A stretch of DNA of 64,000 nt from a virus. Lineage: Duplodnaviria > Caudoviricetes. The notes under the pieces are model-generated. The model ran no database searches, was not told the DNA's origin, and was given only the letters and a program-made list of their open reading frames with translations. Both the position numbers and the translations under genes were made by a program. Positions 2,444-63,909 of this stretch are shown piece by piece (within the stretch, counting starts at the first letter, position 1; each line of letters starts with the position of its first letter). The stretch lies in IMG/VR virus record IMGVR_UViG_3300031088_000758; one strand, written 5' to 3'.

Positions 2444-4723
2444 ATGTCGGATGCTGGTACTTTGTATAAAATGGCTCAGAGGCGATTAGTTGCCACTTTA
2501 ATGTATGTTGGTCAAGGAGCTAATCAGGTTTTTGAGATTGTAAACCCTGAAGACATGGATGAGCCAGCATTAGAGCTAATATTGACTTCCATGGTGAATT
2601 TAACAAGAAGAAATGAAAGCATTAGCCCAATTTCTGTTGCTCGTGAATTAGAATCTTCGGGTAATTTGGATAAAGCTGGCGGAATTTCTGAACTTCACTC
2701 TCTACACTCAGAAGGTGAAAAATATAGTCTTGAAGCTCCTATTGAAATGTATGCGGAAATACTTAGGGATACTAGTGCAAAAACTAGAATTAACTTTGTT
2801 CTAGATGAATCTAAGCAGAATTTTAAAGATGATTCAGGAATAAGTACCGTAGATGCTGTGTCAGAGTTGCAGTCAATTCTAAATCAACAATTAGTTGGAT
2901 TATCAAATGAGTCAACAGTTACAAGAGTACAAGTTAATGCTCAATCATATGAAGAAAGAATTGAAGAGCGCAGAAGAATTAGTGAAGAGAACAAAGAACA
3001 AGCTGATGGACTGCAGGGAATCCCTTCATTACTTCCTACATTAAATAAATACACACACGGATGGGCACCTTCTCAAATGATAACTGTTGGTGCTAGAACA
3101 GGTGTAGGTAAAGCACTTAGTATTGACACCCCGATTTTGACATCACAAGGATGGAAGGATATGGGTGATATCGCAAAAGGTGATTTTGTTTATGGAAGAA
3201 ACGGTAAATTAACAAAGGTTCTCAATGTCACGGAACACCAGTACGAAAGAACAGTTTATGCAGTAAGTTTTAATAATGGTGAAAGAATATTAGCGGATGC
3301 TGATCATTTGTGGATTGTTGAAGACCCTGAAAGCCGAATCGGAAAAAGCGTTGAAAAAGTTTTGACAACAAAAGATATCTTAGATAATTTAATGTATTCA
3401 GACTACCAAGGTACTAAGAGACTATCTTATTCTGTAAGAATTTCAGAACCATTAATCAACAAACATAATGACAATCTTTCAAATCCGTATAATTTTGGAT
3501 TGCAATTAGCTGAAGGTTTTGTTAATTTTGCTCTTTTGGCTGAGGAAGATATGAATGTTGAAACGTATTTAAAAGAATTGATACTAAGTTCTTTTGAACA
3601 ACGTAATGATTTCGTTTCTGGTCTTATTGAATCTGAGAAAGATGATACTCCTTATTTGTATTTTGCTGATTTTGTAGTTGCGGATTCTATTCGCACTATT
3701 TTTAGTTCATTAGGGTATATGACATTTTTTGATTTTGATGAGGAATTTAATTCTTATCGTGTGTCTTTTTATTCACCTAATGAAAACATTTCAATAACTG
3801 GAAAATATTCAACGTATATTACGAATATTGAAGAAGTTGAAAGTGTTCCTGTAAAATGTATTGAAGTAGACAATGAAGATCATACTTATCTTGCTGGACA
3901 TTCTTTGATCCCTACACATAATAGTGTTTTTGCTGTGAATAACGCTGTGGCAGCTGCTCGTGCTGGAAAATCTGTTTTGTTTTTTACCTTGGAAATGGGT
4001 AATGATGAAATTGATGACAGAATCATTGCTTCAATGTCAGGTGTTTCAATGTCAAGGCTTAAAGAAGGTAATTTAAGCGATGAAGATAAGACATTAGTAA
4101 AAAAGAGTCTTGAAGAGTTAAAAGACATGAAAATCATGGTGGATAGTGATCCCAGAGTGAATGTTGACACTATTAGGGCACGAGCTTTCAAACAAGCACA
4201 ATCACCTGAAGGTTTAGACCTAGTTATTGTAGATTATTTACAGTTGATTTCACCTGCTGGTAGTTATTCAAGTAGGCAAGAAGCAGTTGCCGATATTTCG
4301 CGTAATATGAAACTTACAGCGAAAACTCTTGAAGTTCCTATTATAGTTCTTGTACAGCTAAATCGTGGAAAAGGTGATGATGAAGAGGAAAACAAGCTCC
4401 CATCACTAGACCATATTCGTGAATCAGGCTCTATTGCTATGGACTCTGACGTTGTTATTCTTCTTCACAGAGATGATACTTTTGATGACACAACACCTCA
4501 TACTCTTGTTATTTTGGATAAAAACCGTAATGGTGAGTCGCATAAAGTTATTAGATGTCATTCAAATCTTGAATGTTCTCTCTTCCGTGAAGTTAAGAGA
4601 GAGAAAGATGTGTCAGAAGAACGTTTGACAGATGAAGAAATGTCAGAACTTGAAGCGGACATTGATTTAGATGATTTTGATGGTTATGATTTAGATGACA
4701 ATGATTTAAGTTTAGATTTATGA
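2444..4723 (+). CDS. dnaB: Replicative DNA helicase DnaB containing an intein
   Basis: GARTGVGK|S P-loop split by an intein; FFTLEM, VIVDYLQL, QLNR, IRESGSIAMDSD and KNRNG motifs. Confidence 0.95.
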   Translation: MSDAGTLYKMAQRRLVATLMYVGQGANQVFEIVNPEDMDEPALELILTSMVNLTRRNESISPISVARELESSGNLDKAGGISELHSLHSEGEKYSLEAPIEMYAEILRDTSAKTRINFVLDESKQNFKDDSGISTVDAVSELQSILNQQLVGLSNESTVTRVQVNAQSYEERIEERRRISEENKEQADGLQGIPSLLPTLNKYTHGWAPSQMITVGARTGVGKALSIDTPILTSQGWKDMGDIAKGDFVYGRNGKLTKVLNVTEHQYERTVYAVSFNNGERILADADHLWIVEDPESRIGKSVEKVLTTKDILDNLMYSDYQGTKRLSYSVRISEPLINKHNDNLSNPYNFGLQLAEGFVNFALLAEEDMNVETYLKELILSSFEQRNDFVSGLIESEKDDTPYLYFADFVVADSIRTIFSSLGYMTFFDFDEEFNSYRVSFYSPNENISITGKYSTYITNIEEVESVPVKCIEVDNEDHTYLAGHSLIPTHNSVFAVNNAVAAARAGKSVLFFTLEMGNDEIDDRIIASMSGVSMSRLKEGNLSDEDKTLVKKSLEELKDMKIMVDSDPRVNVDTIRARAFKQAQSPEGLDLVIVDYLQLISPAGSYSSRQEAVADISRNMKLTAKTLEVPIIVLVQLNRGKGDDEEENKLPSLDHIRESGSIAMDSDVVILLHRDDTFDDTTPHTLVILDKNRNGESHKVIRCHSNLECSLFREVKREKDVSEERLTDEEMSELEADIDLDDFDGYDLDDNDLSLDL
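3113..3922 (+). mobile_element. Class-3 (Ala1, W-C-T) intein of 270 aa in the DnaB Walker A; central endonuclease region looks degenerate
   Basis: Begins ALSIDTPILTSQGW; block B ADADHLW; block F VKCIEVD; ends PTHN followed by Ser. Confidence 0.9.
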
Positions 4724-21469: not shown

Positions 21470-23401
21470 TTGGGTATGACTGAAAAGAAAATGCTATCTG
21501 ATTATCCTAAGCTTGTTAATGAATGGGACTATGAAAAGAACATTGGTTTAGATCCTCATGTGGAGTCTTTTTCGGGAAGAACTAAAATTTGGTGGAAGTG
21601 TTCTTTAAATCATTCCTGGATGTCCATTCTTAGTAATCGAATAAAAGGTTCTCAATGTCCTTATTGTTCAGGAAGCAAAATCTTAGCAGGTTTTAATGAT
21701 GTTTTTACTGTCTCACCGGAATTAATAAAAGAATGGGATTTTCAAAGAAACAATGAAATAAAAATTGACCCATTGACATTAGGTATTGGAAATCATGCAA
21801 AAGTATGGTGGAAATGCTCTAAGGAATTTCATTCTTATGAATCTTCTGTAGCTTCAAGGATTCGCGGAAGGTCTTGTCCTTACTGCTCCAATAAAAAGGT
21901 TCTTGTAGGTTTTAATGATCTTGCTACTCACAATCCAGAGCTTTTAGAAGAATGGGATTATGAAAAGAATTCTTTAAAACCAGAAGATATTACGCCTGGA
22001 TCTGATAAAGAAATTTATTGGATTTGTAATAAGAAACACTCTTATTTGATGTCAGCACAACGTAGGACTAATAAATCAAATTCTCGCGGGTGCTCTGTTT
22101 GTACAGGCAAAAATGTTGTAAGATCAACTTCTATATTAGATATGCCTGAAATATTGAAATTTTGGGATTTTGATCGTAATAAAGTTGATCCTATGACAGT
22201 TCTGCCAGGCAGCAATAAAAAATATTGGTGGGTCTTTGACTGTGGACATAGCTGCCAGAAATCTCCAAAGTCTATAAAAAATGGTTCAAAATGCCCTTAC
22301 TGTGCTGTTGGTAATACTCAGCTATTGGAAGGATACAATGATTTAGCTACAAAAGCTCCAAATCTTGTGGCTGAATGGAGTGAAAATAATAAAAACTTGC
22401 TACCTTCGAATTTTTTATCTGGTTCTAAGAAGAAAGTTTGGTGGAAGTGTCAAAAAGATCATGAATGGCAAGCTGTAATTGATAATAGATATAGGCGAGT
22501 CGCATCTTGTCCTCAATGTTCTTCTAAAGGAACTTCGAAATTAGAAAAGGAAGTTCAAAACTTTATAAGAAGTATTCTTCCAGGCTCAATTTCTGTTGTT
22601 TTTAACTCTTATCAAATAATTAAGCCACAAGAGCTTGATATTTACATTCCTGAGAAAAGGATAGCAATAGAGTTCAATGGTTTATATTGGCATAGTGAAG
22701 CAACAGGCAAGGATAGAAATTACCATTATGATAAATGGAAAAAATGCCAAGATCAGGGTATTCAATTAATCACTATATGGGAAGATGATTGGCGTAATAA
22801 TAGAAAGATTGTTGAGTCCATGTTGAAGCATAAGATTGGTTTTTCTGATAATATGAGAGTTTATGCTAGGAAGACTTATGCTAAATTAGTTGACAATTTT
22901 GAAGCAAAAAATTTCTTAAATTATCATCATATTCAGGGTTTTAAAAATATTACAAAGAGTTTTGGGTTATTTGACAAAAGTAATGATGTTTTAGTTGCTG
23001 TTATATCTTTTTCTGTTGATAAGAATGTAGCAAGTTTAGATAGGTATGCTACTTCTTTTTCAGTAGTTGGAGGTTTTACAAAGTTGTTGAATTATGCTGT
23101 TAATGAGATAAGAAAAAGCAATTCTGAAATTGATATTATTACAACTTTTGCTGATCATGAGGTCAGTGATGGTGGTTTGTACAAGAAGAATGGCTTCATT
23201 GTTGATTCTCATGTAAAGCCTGATTATAAGTATATTTATAAGAATCAGAGATGCCATAAATTTTTGTTTAGGAAGAAAAGATTCGAAAAAGATTCTGATT
23301 TAGTGTTTGATGAGAATATGACAGAGAAAGAGTTGGCGGATGTCAATAATATATATAGAGTTTGGGATTGCGGTAAAACCAAGTATGTGAAGAAAGTTTA
23401 A
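21470..23401 (+). CDS. Zinc-ribbon repeat protein with PD-(D/E)xK/Vsr-like nuclease (probable free-standing homing endonuclease) and C-terminal VYARK domain
   Basis: Five EW...WWxC..H.....CPxC repeats; ELDIYIP..IAIEFNGLYWH and IWEDDW. Confidence 0.75.
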   Translation: MGMTEKKMLSDYPKLVNEWDYEKNIGLDPHVESFSGRTKIWWKCSLNHSWMSILSNRIKGSQCPYCSGSKILAGFNDVFTVSPELIKEWDFQRNNEIKIDPLTLGIGNHAKVWWKCSKEFHSYESSVASRIRGRSCPYCSNKKVLVGFNDLATHNPELLEEWDYEKNSLKPEDITPGSDKEIYWICNKKHSYLMSAQRRTNKSNSRGCSVCTGKNVVRSTSILDMPEILKFWDFDRNKVDPMTVLPGSNKKYWWVFDCGHSCQKSPKSIKNGSKCPYCAVGNTQLLEGYNDLATKAPNLVAEWSENNKNLLPSNFLSGSKKKVWWKCQKDHEWQAVIDNRYRRVASCPQCSSKGTSKLEKEVQNFIRSILPGSISVVFNSYQIIKPQELDIYIPEKRIAIEFNGLYWHSEATGKDRNYHYDKWKKCQDQGIQLITIWEDDWRNNRKIVESMLKHKIGFSDNMRVYARKTYAKLVDNFEAKNFLNYHHIQGFKNITKSFGLFDKSNDVLVAVISFSVDKNVASLDRYATSFSVVGGFTKLLNYAVNEIRKSNSEIDIITTFADHEVSDGGLYKKNGFIVDSHVKPDYKYIYKNQRCHKFLFRKKRFEKDSDLVFDENMTEKELADVNNIYRVWDCGKTKYVKKV

Positions 23402-55325: not shown

Positions 55326-55510
55326 AATAAATCTCCTAAATAGAACTTCATTTTCTTGTTTTTCTAACAAAAACTTAAACAATAGAACCTACTGCCCTAA
55401 ACAACATTATTTTGTCCTTGTTTACCGATTCGAGAACAATATTTGAAAATCTACTTTTAATAAATTTGATAAACTATTCCACAGAAAAAACGAAAGGGCC
55501 TGCTAAAACA

Positions 55511-56736
55511 ATGAAAGAATATAATGATGAACTGTGGCAAAAACTTGAAAAAGAATATTCATCAAAAAACGATAATCCCTTTTCAAAAATAACTCCCGGA
55601 TCTCATAAAATTTATCAATGGATATGCGAAAACCATGAAGAAACATATAGCAGCAGTGCAGCTGCAAGGTTCAGAGGACAAAACTGTCATTACTGCTCAA
55701 ACAACAAGATTTTAGTAGGATACAATGATCTAGCCACTAAACATCCAGAATTTTTACAAGAATGGGATTATGAGAAGAATGATATAACCCCGCAACAAGT
55801 TCAACCTAAAAGCAGCAAAAAAGCATGGTGGATTTGTCAAAAAGGACACTCTTATCATCAACATATATATAAACATACAGATGGAAGAAAATGTCCGTAT
55901 TGCGCTGGAAGAAAAGTGCTAGAAGGCTTTAATAACATAGAAAACGAAAACTTAATCAAAGAATGGGACAAAAAACTAAACAGTAAAACAATCAGTGAAT
56001 ACACAAATGGTTCAAACCATATTGCCTACTGGATTTGTCCGTTGAACCACTCTTACAAAGCATCTATATATAATAGAACTCAAAGAAACTATGGATGTCC
56101 TTATTGCAGTGGAAGAAAAGTTCTTCAAGGTTTCAATGATCTTAAAAGCCAAGCTCCTGAAATCCTTAAAGAATGGGATTATGAAAAAACGATCATCTAG
56201 AACCTACAAAAATAACATACAAAAGCACTAAAAAAGCTTGGTTCAAATGTTTAAGTTGCCATCATGAGTGGAGAACACCTATCTATAACCGAAGCGTTTT
56301 AAAAACAGGATGCTCTCAATGTGCTTATAATGTAACTGTGTCAAAAGGAGAATTAGAGCTTAGAGAATTTGTTCGAAAAATAGTTAATGTAGAAATTGAG
56401 TTTAACAATCGAACTATTCTACATCCGATGGAAATAGATATCCACATACCAAGTTTAAGGATAGGAATAGAGTACAATGGCGATTATTGGCATAGCGAAG
56501 AAAAAATACAACAATTGAAGAATATGTCAGCTGTTGGCTATCATTGTAGGAAAATAATTATGGCGAAACAAAAAGATGTTCTTCTCCTTATGGTATGGGA
56601 AGATGATTGGAAGAATAACACCGGGAAAGTTCAAGAATATTTAAAGAAAGTTTTTCATTCATCAAATGAGGTTCTTTCTGTACATGAAATCGAAGTTCCA
56701 TCTATTCTGGCAAAAACTGAAAGTGATATTATTTAA
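55511..56736 (+). pseudogene. Zinc-ribbon repeat endonuclease split by a 1-nt frameshift near 56185 (ORFs 55412..56200 + 56338..56736)
   Basis: Adding one A to the A6 run restores EWDYEKNDHLEPTKITYKSTKKAWFKC..., continuous into SKGELE...EIDIHIP...IEYNGDYWH...WEDDW; paralogue of 21470..23401. Confidence 0.75.
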
Positions 56737-56770: not shown

Positions 56771-56926
56771 ATGAAAATTAAGGAAATCAGAGAGATTCAG
56801 CCTGAACTGGCAAGGTGTATCGAAGTTGACTCCCCCGACCGATTATTTGCGGTTGAAGGAACCAGAAAAGATTCTGACAAGAATAACCAAAACAGCAGTG
56901 CAGCTAGTAAAATTATCACCCACAAT
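56771..56926 (+). mobile_element. Split intein C-fragment (class 3 type)
   Basis: MKIKEIREI...block F Cys; terminal THN followed by Ser. Confidence 0.85.
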
Positions 56927-57586
56927 TCAGTCATCCAGCGCAATATTCTGTTCGGCGCTATTCTTCGTCCTGATAGTTGGCGAGTGCTTTGCATAGATTT
57001 GAAGAAAGTGGAATTATCAGGATACAGGGCTTACTCTAATGTTGTATTAGGCGTCGCCACAACTATTGAAGATGCTTTAACTGTTCTAAGGTTTGCTCAA
57101 CAGACAATGATGAAAAGATATGCGGAGATGGAATCCTTGGGCGTAAATAATTTCTTAGATCTTCCAGAACAGGGCCAGGCACTAATGCTAATGGTCGATG
57201 AAGCAGGTGAATTGCTTTCTCCCTCTGGTGTAAAAGCGCTGGTAAGTTCAACAATTCTTCCAACTCCTGATGGTAAAATAAAACTAGAAAATTTAAACAT
57301 TGGCGACACAATTTATGACAATTACGGACAAGAAACCGTTATCACTAATAAATACACACCAGTTGAACAATCACGTTATGAAATAAAAATAACTAGTGAT
57401 AAAACAAAAATTAGCGAAAATTTTGTTGCTGGTTCAGAACATAACTGGGTTGCTTATTTCACGTATCCTGATGGTGAAGTTGAAGGTCCAGAAATTGTTG
57501 ATACACAATACTTATATGAATTTAAAAAACACCAAGAAACATTCCCCATTGAAGAACGCACAACTGTTAAATTTAAAAAAGGCTGA
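56771..57586 (+). CDS. Split-intein gene fragment: IntC - internal FtsK/SpoIIIE ATPase segment - IntN
   Basis: aa 1-52 IntC (RCIEVD...ITHN); aa 53-155 SV...IDLKKVEL...MMKRY...GVNN...LMVDEAGELL; aa 156-271 IntN (ALVSSTILPTPDG...IGD...GSEHNW). Confidence 0.88.
   Translation: MKIKEIREIQPELARCIEVDSPDRLFAVEGTRKDSDKNNQNSSAASKIITHNSVIQRNILFGAILRPDSWRVLCIDLKKVELSGYRAYSNVVLGVATTIEDALTVLRFAQQTMMKRYAEMESLGVNNFLDLPEQGQALMLMVDEAGELLSPSGVKALVSSTILPTPDGKIKLENLNIGDTIYDNYGQETVITNKYTPVEQSRYEIKITSDKTKISENFVAGSEHNWVAYFTYPDGEVEGPEIVDTQYLYEFKKHQETFPIEERTTVKFKKG
57236..57583 (+). mobile_element. Split intein N-fragment (Ala1, block-B HxW)
   Basis: K|ALVSSTILPTPDGKIKLENLNIGD; AGSEHNW; stop reached with no C-terminal HN. 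Confidence 0.82.
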
Positions 57587-57726: not shown

Positions 57727-59556
57727 GTGGAGCTTTTGCAAATGGCGGATAAAATATGTGAATGGTGCAATGAGAAATATAATGGTGCCAAGAATAGTCG
57801 CTGGTGCAAGAAGCCTCATTACAAAACTTGCGATAATCTTGAATGCAACAATACTTTCATCATCAAAGAAATGAAACGCCCAGCTAAAACTTGTTCAAAA
57901 CCTTGCGCTGATGCTCTTACAAAAATTAATTCAACAAAAGAAAAAGTTTGTCAATGGCATAATTGCGGAAAGACTTTCACAAGTTCTAAACATGATGCTA
58001 TGTATTGTTCGAACTCTCATTACGATACATGTGTTGTGTGCAAAAATGAGTTTGAAATACACACGGTTCATAAGCCTGCTAAAACTTGTTCAAAAAAATG
58101 CGCTTGGAATTTAGTGGAAGATGTTGAAAGTGTTGTTGAAAAGAGGAAAAAGAGCAATCAATTAAAATATGGTGTTGATAATCCTTCTCAGGCTCAAAAA
58201 ATTAAAGATAAAAAAACTAAATCAGCGCAAAAAAGATATGGTGTTGATAATGTTTCACAAGCTGAAGAAGTAAAAGAAAAAAGGGTGGGAACGTTTATTG
58301 AACGTTATGGTGCTGATAACCCTATGAGAAACAAAGATATTCAAGAAACTCTTAGACAATCCATTAATGACAAATATGGAGTAGATAATGTTTTTGCTAA
58401 TGAAGAAATTAAGTTAAAAGTTAAACAAACTATTCTTGAAAAATACGGTGTGGAGAATATTTCCCAGCTTCCTTCTAATCAAGACAAAGTTAGAGCAACA
58501 ACACTTATTCGATTTGGAGTGGAAAGTGTTCTACAGTTACCAGAAAATCAATTAAAAGCGAGTTTAGCGAATGGCAAAAGAATCTCTAAAATAAATAAGA
58601 AATGGAAAGAGATCTTAACAAAAGAGGCCAATAAAGAATTTAAGATGGAAACGCATTTCGGTGATAACTACTACGCTGATTTAGGTTATGATAACGTCCT
58701 TATTGATATCAACCCAACAATAACGCATAATTCAACCAATTCTTTTGTCCATTTCACTAGTATTTGTAAAGTTGATGGTTGTGAAAAGAAGTCTCACGCT
58801 CCAAGAGATACAGAATACCATCAGAAACGCGCTCTGATGGCTGAAGAGAACGGATATGTTCTTCTCCAATATTTTGACTGGTATGATCCTGAGATTTTCA
58901 TAAGTATTGTCAAATCAAAACTTAAACAAGAAGATAAAAAGGTATATGCGCGGAAAACTGTTCTCAAAGAAATTAGCCAAGCTGATGCTAATCGTTTCTT
59001 CCGGGAGAATCATCTTATGGGAGCCAGCAATGGGCAAACTTTGTGTTTAGGCTTATTCTATAATGATGAGTTAATCCATGTTCAAACTTATGGTAAAGCA
59101 CGTTTGAACAAGAACTATGAATGGGAAGCTATTCGTTCAGCATCTAGAATTAATCATCATATTCCAGGCGCTTTTAGTAAATGTGATAAATATTTTTTCA
59201 ATAAAATGAAACCTAAGAGTGTTATTAGTTATGTTGATTTAAGTATTAGTCAGGGGCATACTGATTCTATGTTTGATGGCTGGGTTCTGAAATCATTGAA
59301 CAAACCTTCCGCTACTTGGGTGAGAGTAATTGAAGATGAAGCAGCAAAGATAGAGAACCGGAAACCTTTGCCAAGATTTGTTAAAGATTCTGCTGCAAGG
59401 CGTGTTAGTGCAGACAGGTTGCTTGGATTTGAAGTTGGAGAAAAATATCCACGTTTTGATGAAAACGGTTTAAAGATAACTAATGATTACGTTTTTATGT
59501 CAGAAGGTTATATGAAAGTGTTTGATGCTGGTACAAGAACTTATGTATGGCAATGA
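57727..59556 (+). CDS. Probable homing-endonuclease-like protein: Cys-rich zinc fingers, KYGVDN repeats, nuclease-like domain and VYARK domain
   Basis: CxxC/CSxxC motifs; six (K/R)(Y/F)G(V/A)(D/E) repeats; ADLG...IDINPT..H; KVYARKT. Confidence 0.65.
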   Translation: MELLQMADKICEWCNEKYNGAKNSRWCKKPHYKTCDNLECNNTFIIKEMKRPAKTCSKPCADALTKINSTKEKVCQWHNCGKTFTSSKHDAMYCSNSHYDTCVVCKNEFEIHTVHKPAKTCSKKCAWNLVEDVESVVEKRKKSNQLKYGVDNPSQAQKIKDKKTKSAQKRYGVDNVSQAEEVKEKRVGTFIERYGADNPMRNKDIQETLRQSINDKYGVDNVFANEEIKLKVKQTILEKYGVENISQLPSNQDKVRATTLIRFGVESVLQLPENQLKASLANGKRISKINKKWKEILTKEANKEFKMETHFGDNYYADLGYDNVLIDINPTITHNSTNSFVHFTSICKVDGCEKKSHAPRDTEYHQKRALMAEENGYVLLQYFDWYDPEIFISIVKSKLKQEDKKVYARKTVLKEISQADANRFFRENHLMGASNGQTLCLGLFYNDELIHVQTYGKARLNKNYEWEAIRSASRINHHIPGAFSKCDKYFFNKMKPKSVISYVDLSISQGHTDSMFDGWVLKSLNKPSATWVRVIEDEAAKIENRKPLPRFVKDSAARRVSADRLLGFEVGEKYPRFDENGLKITNDYVFMSEGYMKVFDAGTRTYVWQ

Positions 59557-62142: not shown

Positions 62143-63909
62143 TTAAGGTTTCTGATGAGATGTTTTTTGTTTGAGTTCAGCTAATTCTCTTCTGCACTTA
62201 AAACATGAATACAGATCTTTACCTTTTCTTGGAACTGGTTTGATTTCAGTGTTGCATATTACACAATTCCAATCATGAGGATTAGAACAGAATAGTTGGT
62301 TCTTGTTCTTAGCTTCGAATTCTTTGTGGCATAGTTGACAAACATTTATTAAGGCTTTCTTCTCAAAGAGAGGTTTTCTTGATTCCTCTTTAATCTCTTT
62401 TTGACAGATGCTGCAATCCTTATTGGTTTTACCTTTGCTTTCATCATGATATCTGTGTGCTGCTTTGTCAGCAGTACATTTGCTACAGCTTTTACCTTTG
62501 TGCTTTGTTTCACCGTGAATTAAACATTCTCTAATGTTTATAGAACCTTCGGCGCGACATTTTGAACATTTTCCATTCATATGTTTTGTTGTGCCATGAA
62601 TCAAACATTCTTGTATCTCTACAATGTTTTCACGACACTTTAAACATTCGCTGTTGACAAAATATGTTTCGCCATGGACTTTACAGTTGTCTAATGTATA
62701 TTTTGTGTTTCGGCATTTGTAGCATTTGTTTCCGACATGTTTAGTTAAACCATGATTTGAGCAATTCTTCATGGTGATATTTTTTTCATTCAAGCATTTT
62801 CGACATTGATTACCTATGTGTTTCGTGTTACCGTGAATTTCGCATTTTTTGGTATTGATAGATTTTTCGGCAGTGCATCTACAACAAGTTTTTCCAGCAT
62901 GTTTAGTTAAACCATGGATTGAGCAGTTTTTGTCCTCAAAACGCAAAAGTTGTCCTCGATTAAAACCTGTGTAATGACCACCTGTAATACTATTTAAACA
63001 ATTTGGATCAGTGTGCCAAAGATCTTGAATTAACTCTTTTTCATGACGATATGCTTGTGATCTAGTGTCAAATATACTTAGGACTTCTTTTTTAAGAGTT
63101 TTTCTGTATTTCTTTTTCCAGTTGCCAAATTTATTGTTTTCAGATGCTTTGCCTCCGCTTCCATAATAGCCATCATTTAGGCAGTCTTCTATAGTAATTT
63201 CGCTATAAGGTTTCTTAACACTTGAAACTCCATAGTAGTACTTTTCAGATTTTGATGAAGTTATTTTATAAGTGTAAAAGCTAATGTTTGGATTAAACCA
63301 AGCATAGACTTTATCACCAGTTGTTTCTTCTATGCTCCATCCTAACTCTTCAACGAATAGTTCTATATTTGTTTTTCTTTTTCCGTTCTTATGAAAAACT
63401 TCACCTAATGTAGTTCCGAGAATATTATCAGGACCTAAACTTACAACATAAGGAATTGAAAGTTTCTCTTTGCCTCTGGCAGTAGAAATATTCTTATTTG
63501 GAGCAATTAAGTAACTTTTTGTTTTGTCTTGAGAAATTAGCTTAAAACCAGCATGTTCATAAACTTTTGTATTTTCGCCTGTTGTGTCTTGATAAGTAAA
63601 GATGTCATAAGGCGAAAATTCTTGTTTGTAATAGTTGACTAGTTTACTGGCACCACCTGTAACCCTGACATTTTGCTTAAAACACAGTCTTAAAAGCTCA
63701 GTAGAGTATTCAGCTTTTTTCGCGGAAGTTCTTGGGGAGCAAAATTGTGCTACAGCAATAAGTTCTTTTTTGTATAAAAGACCAATACTGAATACTCTTG
63801 TATTAGGTGCGGCAGAACCGCTCGAATGATAAGCCTCAACAAAGCTTTGTGCTGTTTCTGAATCAATAACTTTCACAATTGTTTTTCTTGCGTATACCCT
63901 TCGCTGCAT
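62143..63909 (-). CDS. VYARK domain + GIY-YIG-like endonuclease + six CxxHG...CxxC zinc-finger repeats
   Basis: RVYARKT N-terminus; YTYKIT...YYYG...YYGSG...EKELI...CLN; repeats such as CSIHGLTKHAGKTCCRC. Confidence 0.7.
   Translation of the reverse strand: MQRRVYARKTIVKVIDSETAQSFVEAYHSSGSAAPNTRVFSIGLLYKKELIAVAQFCSPRTSAKKAEYSTELLRLCFKQNVRVTGGASKLVNYYKQEFSPYDIFTYQDTTGENTKVYEHAGFKLISQDKTKSYLIAPNKNISTARGKEKLSIPYVVSLGPDNILGTTLGEVFHKNGKRKTNIELFVEELGWSIEETTGDKVYAWFNPNISFYTYKITSSKSEKYYYGVSSVKKPYSEITIEDCLNDGYYGSGGKASENNKFGNWKKKYRKTLKKEVLSIFDTRSQAYRHEKELIQDLWHTDPNCLNSITGGHYTGFNRGQLLRFEDKNCSIHGLTKHAGKTCCRCTAEKSINTKKCEIHGNTKHIGNQCRKCLNEKNITMKNCSNHGLTKHVGNKCYKCRNTKYTLDNCKVHGETYFVNSECLKCRENIVEIQECLIHGTTKHMNGKCSKCRAEGSINIRECLIHGETKHKGKSCSKCTADKAAHRYHDESKGKTNKDCSICQKEIKEESRKPLFEKKALINVCQLCHKEFEAKNKNQLFCSNPHDWNCVICNTEIKPVPRKGKDLYSCFKCRRELAELKQKTSHQKP

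What the first reader, a model, noticed from the sequence alone, without database searches (positions are those of the whole stretch)
56771..57586. IntC-extein-IntN gene: middle piece of an FtsK-like ATPase joined by two split class-3 inteins, or a natural cyclisation cassette
Seen: the ORF starts with a 52-aa intein C-fragment ending THN/S. It continues with 103 aa of FtsK/SpoIIIE ATPase running from the Walker A Ser to just past Walker B, and ends in a 116-aa intein N-fragment beginning with Ala. Both halves have class-3 signatures (Ala1, block-B Trp, block-F Cys, block-G Thr). No other FtsK piece lies in the window, and the gene is flanked by two endonuclease-like genes, as in fractured genes. 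Inference: the ATPase is built from at least three separately encoded, dispersed polypeptides by two orthogonal trans-splicing reactions. If the two halves instead react with each other, the layout is that of SICLOPPS and would give a cyclic protein. Naturally split class-3 inteins would also be useful as tools.
Basis: partly seen in the sequence, partly recalled or inferred. Interest (0 to 1): 0.9.

Follow-up and report, generated by a model that had tools for sequence, protein, structure and literature searches.

The report
Middle piece of intein-stitched phage ATPase
This giant-phage gene encodes only the middle third of a membrane-anchored FtsK-like DNA-pumping ATPase, flanked by halves of two different self-splicing inteins; the other pieces are elsewhere in the same genome, and one of the inteins is itself encoded in three separate genes, which has been reported only for engineered inteins.

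Summary
ORF 56771-57586 (271 aa) is a 52-aa intein C-fragment, 103 aa of FtsK/SpoIIIE ATPase (Pfam positions 53-154), then a 116-aa intein N-fragment.

The main reading, a middle piece joined by two trans-splicing reactions, is supported. Both partners lie on the same 727,572-bp huge-phage contig. The C piece (P0123, 58-aa IntC plus the FtsK C-terminus) starts 54 nt beyond the window end. The N piece (P0329) ends in Walker A GGGTGGGK plus only 15 intein residues.

The missing middle of intein 1 is a free-standing 215-aa ORF (P0348) 6.9 kb downstream of the N piece. Junction 1 is therefore an apparent natural three-piece split class-3 intein. The N piece also carries a contiguous class-1 mini-intein. 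In total, four polypeptides and three inteins make one ATPase.

Relatives show every state at junction 2 (absent, contiguous, split). About 97 clusters share this ORF's layout, and the catalytic residues are invariant.

Cyclisation is not supported, because the two halves belong to different, separately conserved inteins.

Splicing itself is inferred, not shown. The scan had already noted the same system from the N-piece side of this genome (e1-5525475) and in other genomes.

The parts
56771..56926 (+). IntC1: the 52-aa C-fragment of split class-3 intein 1. It carries block F Cys16 (56816-56818) and block G T50-H51-N52. It has a roughly 12-aa insertion compared with the 40-aa median of relatives.
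   Evidence: C16, H51 and N52 are invariant in 66 clusters. IntC1 length has a median of 40 aa (n=143). It is predicted to dock on P0348 and the N-piece tail.
56927..57235 (+). Middle extein, aa 53-155. It runs from the Walker A Ser (+1 nucleophile S53) through Walker B (DEAGE) to K155 of an FtsK/SpoIIIE-type ATPase.
   Evidence: PF01580 positions 53-154, 31.8 bits. phrog_1358 FtsK/SpoIIIE-like, E 8e-11. The AF2 model matches the E. coli FtsK motor 2ius_A at Z 6.8, rmsd 3.8 over 118 residues, followed by EccC and TcpA.
57236..57583 (+). IntN2: the 116-aa N-fragment of split class-3 intein 2. It carries Ala156 and block B H224/W226. Its partner IntC2 is on the C piece, just outside the window at window-equivalent 64054-64944.
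   Evidence: The model has pLDDT 86-96, and residues 156-198 superpose on the class-3 MchDnaB-1 intein 6riy_A at rmsd 1.2 A over 43 residues.
55412..56736 (+). Two adjacent ORFs (55412-56200, zinc-ribbon DUF4379 repeats; 56338-56736, nuclease domain). Together they are colinear with one homing-endonuclease family, so they are a split or decayed HEN immediately upstream of the piece.
   Evidence: The first ORF covers phrog_559 positions 110-305 and the second covers 307-419. phrog_3339 scores E 4e-24 on the second ORF.
57727..59556 (+). Free-standing homing endonuclease (609 aa, DUF7487) between the middle piece and the C piece.
   Evidence: phrog_3339 E 2e-56; PF24308 E 2e-43.
62143..63909 (-). 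A second endonuclease-like gene (588 aa), the last gene before the C piece.
   Evidence: phrog_3339 E 7e-25, phrog_559 and phrog_314.

Best explanation
The ORF is the third of four polypeptides that a huge phage uses to make one membrane-anchored FtsK/SpoIIIE-type ATPase of about 670 aa.

The four polypeptides are:
1. N piece P0329 (486 aa). It has transmembrane helices and the N-extein, and it contains a contiguous class-1 mini-intein (140 aa) that splices in cis. It ends with Walker A GGGTGGGK followed by a 15-aa tail (S-L-A-I-N-T-L-V..), which is only the first strand (block A) of intein 1.
2. P0348 (215 aa), a free-standing protein encoded 6.9 kb downstream of the N piece. It supplies the rest of the N-lobe of intein 1 (block B, ..SGNHLWY..), interrupted by a conserved helical insertion domain.
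3. This ORF, which is IntC1 - 103-aa extein - IntN2.
4. C piece P0123 (296 aa), which is IntC2 (58 aa) plus the FtsK C-terminal part. It is encoded 6.5 kb downstream of this ORF.

Inferred mechanism at junction 1. The tail, P0348 and IntC1 assemble into one HINT domain. Cys16 of this ORF (block F:4) attacks the K471-S472 bond of the N piece, which is the class-3 branched thioester step. The N-extein is then passed to Ser53, Asn52 cyclises, and the result is ..GGGTGGGK-SVIQR...

Inferred mechanism at junction 2. IntN2 pairs with IntC2, whose own block-F Cys does the same chemistry, giving ..SGVK-SEEGK...

What is shown here: the anatomy, the presence of all the pieces in one genome, their conservation, and a predicted three-way interface. 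What is inferred: splicing, the order of reactions and orthogonality.
For: Same genome. P0001, P0123 and P0329 each sit on a contig of 727,572 bp, and each is carried by the same three-contig pattern. L046 is identical to the window over 9,947 nt, which puts the C piece at window-equivalent 64054-64944.

Colinearity. The N piece ends at the Walker A Lys, the middle extein covers Pfam positions 53-154, and the C piece reaches positions 194-219. Forms without intein 2 read through the junction without a break.

Junction 2. Among 226 clusters, 97 have IntC1-MID-IntN2, 70 have IntC2-CEXT, 36 have no intein 2, 13 have a large contiguous intein 2 and 2 have a contiguous mini-intein 2 (examples P0110, P0111 and P0204).

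Junction 1.
- In 120 N-piece clusters the tail after GGGK has a median of 17 aa, with consensus [SA]-L-[SA]-V-D-T-x-V. IntC1 has a median of 40 aa.
- The missing part is P0348. It matches the N-extension of P0066, a natural variant in which that part is fused to IntC1 (E 9e-20).
- The P0348 family profile hits the solved gp41-1 intein (E 4e-9, intein residues 16-71) and class-3 DnaB inteins. It also hits the window's own DnaB intein (E 3e-7).
- Eleven inteins appear in the VIA top 50 (Z 3.1-4.7, rmsd 1.7-3.0 over 40-49 residues).
- About 90 representative clusters are stand-alone proteins of mostly 190-260 aa, and the block B His is invariant.
- In four IMG/VR huge-phage records (CheckV completeness 100) the N piece, the central ORF (0.9-9 kb downstream, same strand) and the IntC1 piece (90-115 kb away) are all present.

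Predicted complex of tail + P0348 + IntC1. The score is ipSAE 0.75 against a best control of 0.01. That mark was reached by 58 of 80 solved complexes and 2 of 110 mismatched pairs. The runs agree in at least 88% of contacts, and the partner pLDDT is at least 81. The interface includes tail residues 468-485. Solved split-intein complexes exist, so this pass shows likeness to an intein assembly, not binding.

Catalytic residues. C16, H51, N52 and S53 are invariant, and +1 is Ser in 143 of 143.
Against: - There is no experimental evidence of splicing, and no RNA or protein data were examined.
- Pfam does not recognise P0348 as a Hint domain. Foldseek gave no significant hit, and the VIA Z-scores are modest.
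- Block B:12 is Trp in only 55 of 75 central fragments, and G:5 of IntC1 is Ser more often than Thr (88 against 55). The canonical WCT triad is therefore not strictly kept.
- Residue 1 of intein 1 is Ser in 76 of 120 clusters, including this phage, so a class-1 first step cannot be excluded for those.
- That all four genes lie on one molecule rests on the contig-length label and on a scan note. I did not read the 727-kb contig itself.
Confidence: 0.75

Rival explanations
1. Non-covalent clasp. The intein fragments no longer splice and only hold the ATPase pieces together, as proposed elsewhere in this scan for split polymerases.
For: Dead half-intein clasps were proposed in this same genome for DnaE (note e1-5525525). 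Junction 1 is unusually fragmented. The WCT triad is imperfect.
Against: The residues needed only for chemistry are invariant: block-F Cys, terminal His-Asn, +1 Ser (143 of 143), and block B His of the central fragment. Both breaks lie inside the nucleotide-binding core (after the Walker A Lys and after Walker B), where a bulky retained intein would be hard to tolerate. Contiguous intein 2 forms must splice to give a working ATPase.
Confidence: 0.1
2. Cyclisation cassette (SICLOPPS-like). IntC1 and IntN2 of the same polypeptide react with each other and release a cyclic 103-aa protein as the main product.
For: The IntC-extein-IntN topology is that of SICLOPPS. The two IntC fragments share the block F core (9 of 17 identical). 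In 12 clusters the IntC2 query also hit IntC1.
Against: - Each half has its own partner in the same genome.
- 36 clusters keep IntC1 with no IntN2 at all, and 15 have intein 2 contiguous with its own IntC2, so the two are independent inteins at two insertion sites.
- IntC1 and IntC2 are separate conserved families. Their own HMMs score 84-94 bits, while cross-scores are 15-22 bits.
- In the AF2 monomer IntC1 is unplaced (pLDDT 31-51) while IntN2 is confident. The SICLOPPS chain 5ol6_A aligns only to model residues 201-271, inside IntN2.
- IntC1 lacks any N-lobe unless P0348 supplies it.
Confidence: 0.03
3. Decaying relic. The gene was shattered by homing endonucleases, the pieces are non-functional, and the ATPase is lost.
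For: There are many endonuclease genes around the pieces, one of them itself broken. The pieces are dispersed.
Against: The same ORF boundaries and complete open frames occur in about 97 (middle), 70 (C), 120 (N) and 90 (central) sequence clusters, down to about 45-50% identity with invariant functional residues. That pattern indicates purifying selection, not decay.
Confidence: 0.03
4. Assembly or gene-calling artefact at the ORF ends.
For: The source is a metagenomic contig.
Against: The identical protein is carried by three contigs, including an independent Logan assembly that matches the window with 0 mismatches in 9,947 nt. The start (MKIK..) and the end (..KFKK-stop) are conserved in relatives. 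The N piece ends in TAA followed by further in-frame stops.
Confidence: 0.01

Closest known systems
Engineered three-piece split inteins: Ssp DnaB and Rma DnaB (Sun, Yang and Liu 2004, J Biol Chem 279:35281, cited in PMC2677866 and PMC11923092), and Npu DnaE and gp41-1 (Weis et al. 2023, bioRxiv 10.1101/2023.01.30.526203)
   Same: One HINT domain is rebuilt from a very short N peptide carrying block A (11-15 aa), a middle fragment carrying block B, and a C fragment of about 40 aa carrying blocks F and G. The split sites correspond to the same loops.
   Different: Those inteins are man-made and class 1. This one is natural, conserved in many huge-phage genomes and class-3-like. Its middle fragment carries a conserved helical insertion domain of about 125 aa and is a gene of its own. 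Weis et al. state that natural inteins had so far been found only as one or two genes.
AceL NrdHF, the first reported naturally split class-3 intein (Hoffmann et al. 2020, PMC7891396)
   Same: It is a naturally split intein from a metagenome that uses an internal block-F Cys. It tolerates variation of the WCT triad, and both nucleophiles lie on the C-side fragment.
   Different: It is a two-piece intein joining two exteins in NrdHF. Here there are two split class-3 inteins in one host protein, one of them in three pieces, and the host is an FtsK-like ATPase.
Fractured genes (Dassa, London, Stoddard, Schueler-Furman and Pietrokovski 2009, PMC2677866)
   Same: The host genes are phage-type metagenomic genes broken at split inteins, with free-standing homing-endonuclease genes beside the breaks. 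The relative L012 has exactly that layout: N piece - HEN - rest.
   Different: In this phage the pieces are not adjacent. The middle and C pieces are 6.5 kb apart with five genes between them. The N piece is on another Logan contig, about 160 kb away according to scan note e1-5525475. One protein carries three inteins. I found no mention of FtsK or of class 3 in that paper.
Atypically split inteins with a short IntN (AceL-TerL, GOS-TerL, consensus Cat, PDB 6DSL)
   Same: A short N fragment is followed by a long remainder. The variant in L012 (25-aa tail plus a roughly 240-aa IntC) is of this kind.
   Different: The IntN is 25-37 aa in those (from my own knowledge), against a median of 17 aa here. 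In those, the remainder is one fragment, not two.
Class-3 DnaB P-loop inteins (Msm DnaBi1 6bs8, MchDnaB-1 6rix/6riy)
   Same: They share the insertion point after the P-loop GK and the motifs A-L-S-x-D-T, H-L-W, C-I-E-V-D and T-H-N|S. The window's own DnaB (2444-4723) carries such an intein, and P0348 matches it at E 3e-7.
   Different: Those are contiguous and sit in a helicase.

Membership tests
FtsK/SpoIIIE (PF01580) P-loop ATPase | Profile match above the curated cut-off, with Walker A and Walker B in order | tested here: met
   The middle extein scores 31.8 bits against a cut-off of 24, at positions 53-154. Walker A GGGTGGGK is on the N piece, Walker B DEAGE is on this ORF, and the C piece reaches positions 194-219. 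The model's best structural matches are FtsK 2ius_A (Z 6.8), EccC and TcpA.
Intein, class 3 (intein 1: tail + P0348 + IntC1) | Block F:4 Cys, block B His with B:12 Trp, G:5 Thr, terminal Asn, +1 nucleophile; residue 1 need not be a nucleophile | tested here: met
   C16, H51, N52 and S53 are invariant. P0348 H54 is invariant and W56 is present (W in 55 of 75 relatives). T50 is present here (family: S 88, T 55). Residue 1 is Ser here (family: S 76, A 44). The Ala1 members cannot use a class-1 first step.
Intein, class 3 (intein 2: IntN2 + IntC2) | The same WCT signature plus a non-nucleophilic residue 1 | tested here: met
   A156, H224 and W226 are on this ORF. IntC2 on P0123 has ..LYCISVD.. and ..PTHN|S. 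G:5 is Thr in 59 of 60, and +1 is Thr or Ser.
Intein (any class) | Protein splicing activity | not testable with these tools
   This needs expression and mass spectrometry or Western blot.
Naturally split (two-piece) intein | Complementary N and C fragments on separate genes of one genome, each fused to an extein | tested here: met
   Intein 2: IntN2 on this ORF and IntC2 on P0123, 6.5 kb downstream on the same contig.
Three-piece split intein | One HINT domain distributed over three separately encoded polypeptides, the middle one without an extein | tested here: met
   The fragments are a 15-aa tail, stand-alone P0348 with its own RBS and stop, and the 52-aa IntC1. P0348 is homologous to intein residues 16-71. 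The predicted three-way interface scores 0.75 against a best control of 0.01. Co-occurrence holds in 5 genomes. This is genomic and predicted only.
Fractured gene (Dassa et al. 2009) | Split-intein halves of one host gene separated at one locus by a free-standing endonuclease gene | tested here: inconclusive
   An HEN gene follows the middle piece directly and another precedes the C piece, but five genes (two of them not HEN-like, e.g. NUDIX) lie between. The N piece is remote. The relative L012 fits the definition.
SICLOPPS-type cyclisation cassette | IntC and IntN of the same intein flanking the segment to be cyclised | tested here: not met
   The two halves belong to different inteins with different insertion sites and different partners.

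The most novel reading that the evidence does not exclude
The free-standing central fragment (P0348) is not just a leftover of gene fragmentation. It would be a trans-acting licensing factor. The ATPase could be joined at its P-loop only when this third protein is made, or when its conserved helical, weakly winged-helix-like insertion domain (invariant R70, R125, G131, Q167) binds a ligand such as DNA. That would make it a natural conditional protein-splicing switch timing a DNA translocase during infection. Its operon-like coupling to a degenerate FtsK-like 281-aa gene would fit a dedicated assembly module.
Probability: 0.15. Interest if true: 0.9.

Novelty: new variant of a known kind. Interest (0 to 1): 0.8.

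Why it matters
- If the pieces splice as inferred, this is a natural protein assembled from four gene products by three inteins of two mechanistic classes.
- It would include the first natural three-piece split intein, and it would be a natural case of tandem trans-splicing, which needs two non-cross-reacting split class-3 inteins.
- That would show that extreme intein fragmentation is evolutionarily stable in huge phages.
- It would give a large natural library of short-IntN (12-17 aa) class-3 parts, with hundreds of sequence clusters, for three-input logic, peptide ligation and multi-segment protein assembly.
- It raises the question of whether splicing is used to control a DNA-pumping ATPase.
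- For annotation, it explains a set of orphan 'hypothetical' ORFs of about 210 aa and of 260-300 aa in giant-phage genomes.

Tried and rejected
- No whole genome is held for this window. There was no DNA match in the isolate phage collection or in IMG/VR by exact pattern.
- tblastn of the ORF against isolate phages found only an intein-bearing Gordonia terminase. The N-extein has no match in isolate phages.
- Pfam and PHROGs give nothing useful for P0348 except a weak hit to an intein-bearing terminase family. Foldseek against the PDB gave no hit at E <= 0.001, only weak MarR-like rows for the insertion domain.
- BLAST of the exteins against the Bacillus phage Kamfam DNA translocase aligned only the C-extein, so colinearity rests on Pfam coordinates and on the junction-2 read-through forms.
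- I considered that IntN2 might serve both inteins. I rejected this once the separate central ORF was found, and because IntN2 has its own block A.
- I considered stop-codon read-through of the N piece, because this genome encodes an amber suppressor tRNA. I rejected it because the stop is TAA, followed by further in-frame stops.
- Paper searches for a natural three-piece intein, for split inteins in huge or jumbo phages, and for inteins in FtsK found no prior description. The library does not hold subscription journals.
- I did not examine RNA or read data.
Full report
**The object**

The ORF at 56771..57586 (+) is real. It is 271 aa long, starts at an ATG preceded by an AGGGA Shine-Dalgarno-like site, and ends in TGA.

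Pfam puts FtsK_SpoIIIE on aa 53-152, matching profile positions 53-154 of 221 above the curated cut-off. PHROGs gives FtsK/SpoIIIE-like for the same stretch, and gives intein-bearing terminase families for aa about 151-252.

The window is part of a huge phage:
- It encodes a DnaB-type helicase, a ribonucleotide reductase, a Lon-like protease, helicases and an exonuclease.
- It encodes several homing endonucleases of one family.
- The protein is recorded on a contig of 727,572 bp.

**Boundaries fixed by natural variants**

A search of 5.8 billion proteins found more than 200 relatives. Aligning representatives shows the following:
- Proteins of about 380 aa (P0110, P0113, P0102) have the same first 155 residues and then continue directly into the FtsK C-terminal region (GVK|SEE..).
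- P0111 has a contiguous mini-intein exactly there.
- P0204 and P0208 have a large contiguous intein with an endonuclease-like insert there.

The last 116 residues of our ORF are therefore the N-fragment of an intein inserted after K155. Its residue 1 is Ala, and the C-extein +1 residue is Ser or Thr. All these proteins begin with the same fragment of about 40 aa, ending [ST]HN|S before the Walker A Ser.

**The C piece**

I searched with the C-terminal part of P0110 and found P0123 (296 aa) on the 727,572-bp contig. It consists of 58 aa ending ..LYCISVD....PTHN, followed by SEEGK.. and the rest of the ATPase.

Its locus, L046, also contains our ORF and is identical to the window over 9,947 nt. 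This places the C piece at window-equivalent 64054-64944, which is 54 nt past the window end. Five genes lie between the two pieces: an HEN, a NUDIX gene, two unknowns and an HEN-like gene on the other strand.

**The N piece and the surprise**

The relative locus L012 gave the N-extein (P0228). It is a protein with transmembrane helices that ends ..GGGTGGGK|ALSIDTW...

Searching with it found P0329 (486 aa) on the 727,572-bp contig. P0329 differs from most relatives in carrying a contiguous class-1 mini-intein (140 aa; C-I-T-G-E-T.. to ..V-T-S-N|C) 11 residues before the end of the extein. Only 15 of 120 clusters have this intein.

After GGGTGGGK it has only 15 residues (S-L-A-I-N-T-L-V-E-V..) and then TAA. 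Across the 120 clusters:
- The tail has a median of 17 aa, and 88 of 120 are 20 aa or shorter.
- The consensus is [SA]-L-[SA]-V-D-T-x-V, which is intein block A.

IntC1 has a median of 40 aa. Fifteen plus 52 residues cannot make a HINT domain, and the block B region is missing from both pieces.

**The missing part is a gene of its own**

In L012 the missing part is present as a 195-aa N-extension of the middle piece (P0066). That locus is a conventional atypically split intein, with an endonuclease gene (P0227) between the halves.

Searching four IMG/VR huge-phage records (CheckV completeness 100) with that extension found, in each, a separate ORF of 210-260 aa. It lies 0.9-9 kb downstream of the N piece on the same strand. 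The IntC1-bearing piece lies 90-115 kb away.

In our phage the same ORF (P0348, 215 aa) lies at L045:18311-18958. It is 6.9 kb downstream of the N piece and has its own ribosome-binding site.

Evidence that P0348 is the central part of an intein:
- It contains ..ASGNHLWY.. (block B His, with Trp at B:12).
- Its family comprises about 90 representative clusters at E < 1e-10, nearly all stand-alone proteins of about 190-260 aa.
- H54 is invariant, and so are four residues in the inserted domain.
- A profile of the family hits the solved gp41-1 intein (E 4e-9, intein residues 16-71) and class-3 DnaB inteins (E about 1e-6).
- P0348 also hits the DnaB intein in this window (E 3e-7).

The AF2 model (pLDDT 92) shows N-terminal strands, a helical insertion (about residues 60-186) and a final strand. 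Foldseek gave no significant match. VIA-align placed 11 inteins in the top 50 (Z 3.1-4.7, rmsd 1.7-3.0 A over 40-49 residues), spanning residues 31..211 on both sides of the insertion.

**Predicted assembly**

I folded the N-piece end (residues 452-486), P0348 and residues 1-80 of this ORF together.
- The score was 0.75 against a best control of 0.01. That mark was reached by 58 of 80 solved complexes and 2 of 110 mismatched pairs.
- The runs agree in at least 88% of contacts, and the partner pLDDT is at least 81.
- The interface covers tail residues 468-485; P0348 residues 1-57, 130-141 and 188-205; and IntC1 residues 1-33 and 45-62.

Split-intein complexes are solved, so this pass shows that the three fragments look like an intein assembly. 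It does not show that they bind.

**Census and conservation**

Classifying the 226 clusters retrieved gave:

| Architecture | Clusters |
|---|---|
| IntC1-MID-IntN2 (this layout) | 97 |
| IntC2-CEXT | 70 |
| IntC1-MID-CEXT (no intein 2) | 36 |
| Large contiguous intein 2 | 13 |
| Contiguous mini-intein 2 | 2 |
| CENTRAL-IntC1-MID-IntN2 (P0066) | 1 |

Conservation of the functional residues:
- In 66 middle pieces C16, H51, N52, S53, K155, H224 and W226 are invariant.
- The +1 residue of intein 1 is Ser in 143 of 143.
- IntC2 has Thr at G:5 in 59 of 60.

Matching N, middle and C pieces share contig lengths in several other large contigs, for example 436,884 and 697,643 bp; for 211,039 and 183,504 bp only the middle and C pieces (and, at 183,504, the N piece) are matched. 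This pattern fits purifying selection on a splicing system, not decay.

**Cyclisation**

The two halves on this ORF belong to different inteins.
- IntC1 occurs without any IntN2 in 36 clusters. Intein 2 occurs contiguous with its own IntC2 in 15.
- The two IntC families are related: 9 of 17 residues are identical around block F.
- They are nevertheless clearly distinct. Their own HMMs score 84-94 bits, while cross-scores are 15-22 bits.
- In the AF2 model of the ORF alone, the extein and IntN2 are confident but IntC1 is unplaced (pLDDT 31-51).
- The SICLOPPS chain 5ol6_A aligns only to model residues 201-271, inside IntN2.

A cyclic by-product cannot be excluded, but nothing supports it as the function.

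**Mechanism (inferred)**

I call both split inteins class 3 for three reasons: the invariant block-F Cys, Ala at residue 1 (44 of 120 for intein 1, nearly all for intein 2), and Trp at B:12.

The inferred course of the reaction, from established class-3 chemistry, is:
1. The block-F Cys attacks the N-junction peptide bond.
2. The N-extein moves to the +1 Ser or Thr.
3. The terminal Asn cyclises.

At junction 1 all the nucleophiles (C16, N52, S53) sit on this ORF, while the scissile bond sits on the N piece and block B sits on P0348.

Caveats: intein 1 of this phage has Ser1, G:5 of IntC1 is often Ser, and no activity has been measured.

**Literature**

- A naturally split class-3 intein is known. 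AceL NrdHF was described as the first, with none among 1,701 class-3 inteins (PMC7891396).
- Three-piece split inteins are described as synthetic only. A 2023 preprint states that natural inteins had been found encoded by one gene or by two.
- I found no paper on this FtsK system or on a natural IntC-extein-IntN gene, within the limits of the library.

**Earlier notes of this scan (consulted after my own analysis)**

- e1-5525475 describes the same three-piece intein from the N-piece side of this genome, about 102 kb before the window start.
- e1-5525523 saw the middle and C pieces together.
- e1-5327510 reports the N piece in another genome.
- e1-5341805 and e1-5406527 report the IntC-extein-IntN layout in giant-phage terminases.

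My results agree with these notes. They add the link between the two ends, the census at junction 2, and the tests of cyclisation.

**Verdict**

The system is a new natural variant of a known kind (split inteins), and it is of high interest. Splicing itself remains to be shown.

Noticed in passing
window 2444-4723 (+), intein at about 3113-3922: The DnaB-like replicative helicase carries a contiguous class-3 intein after its P-loop (..GVGK|ALSIDT.. / ..DHLW.. / ..KCIEVD.. / ..PTHN|S) with an inserted domain. Its motifs closely resemble FtsK intein 1, and P0348 matches it at E 3e-7. The FtsK intein is therefore probably a relative of the DnaB P-loop inteins.
   Followed up: partly
L045:10001-11461 (N piece P0329), residues 321-460: A third, contiguous class-1 mini-intein (140 aa; Cys1, T-x-x-H block B, ends ..TSN|C with no penultimate His) sits 11 residues upstream of the split junction. 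It is present in only 15 of 120 N-piece clusters.
   Followed up: partly
L045:17398-18243 (+); also L041:623-1486 and L042:632-1477: A conserved 281-287-aa ORF lies directly upstream of the central intein fragment. It overlaps the fragment's start codon in two relatives and is fused to it in P0367. It has no Pfam or PHROG hit. The ESM Atlas places it among FtsK/HerA/EccC-like ATPases (feature score 0.92; structure TM 0.55-0.60 on a low-confidence model). It seems to lack a Walker A, so it may be a degenerate partner ATPase domain.
   Followed up: partly
window 21470-23401, 55412-56736, 57727-59556, 62143-63909(-); L045:11556-12791; L046:11021-13693: One homing-endonuclease family (phrog_559/3339, with DUF4379 or DUF7487 zinc-ribbon repeats and a Vsr/MTES_1575-like nuclease domain) has at least seven copies near the pieces and near the ribonucleotide reductase gene. 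The copy at 55412-56736 is broken into two ORFs.
   Followed up: partly
L013 and L037 (IMGVR_UViG_3300044557_000292, 419,707 bp): A more distant huge phage has the first intein at a different site, five residues earlier (before TGGGKS), and split differently. The N piece ends ..LDVDTMVW.. plus an acidic tail, and the 87-aa IntC begins with block B (..EEHLWTV..). No central ORF was found there, so part of the N-lobe is unaccounted for.
   Followed up: partly
L012 (Logan SRR26820223 contig, 4,271 bp): This is a two-piece variant of intein 1 in classic fractured-gene layout. The N piece has a 25-aa tail, followed by a 456-aa endonuclease gene, followed by a 456-aa protein in which the central fragment is fused to IntC1-extein-IntN2.
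   Followed up: yes
G002 (IMGVR_UViG_3300012642_000011): 71484-73951 and 363626-366093: The N piece and the central ORF occur twice in inverted orientation, in a record classed as having inverted terminal repeats. This may be a very long inverted duplication or an assembly artefact.
   Followed up: no
L045:15735-16901 (-): A bacterial-eRF1-like (baeRF family) gene lies between the N piece and the central fragment, in a genome that other notes say carries an amber suppressor tRNA.
   Followed up: no
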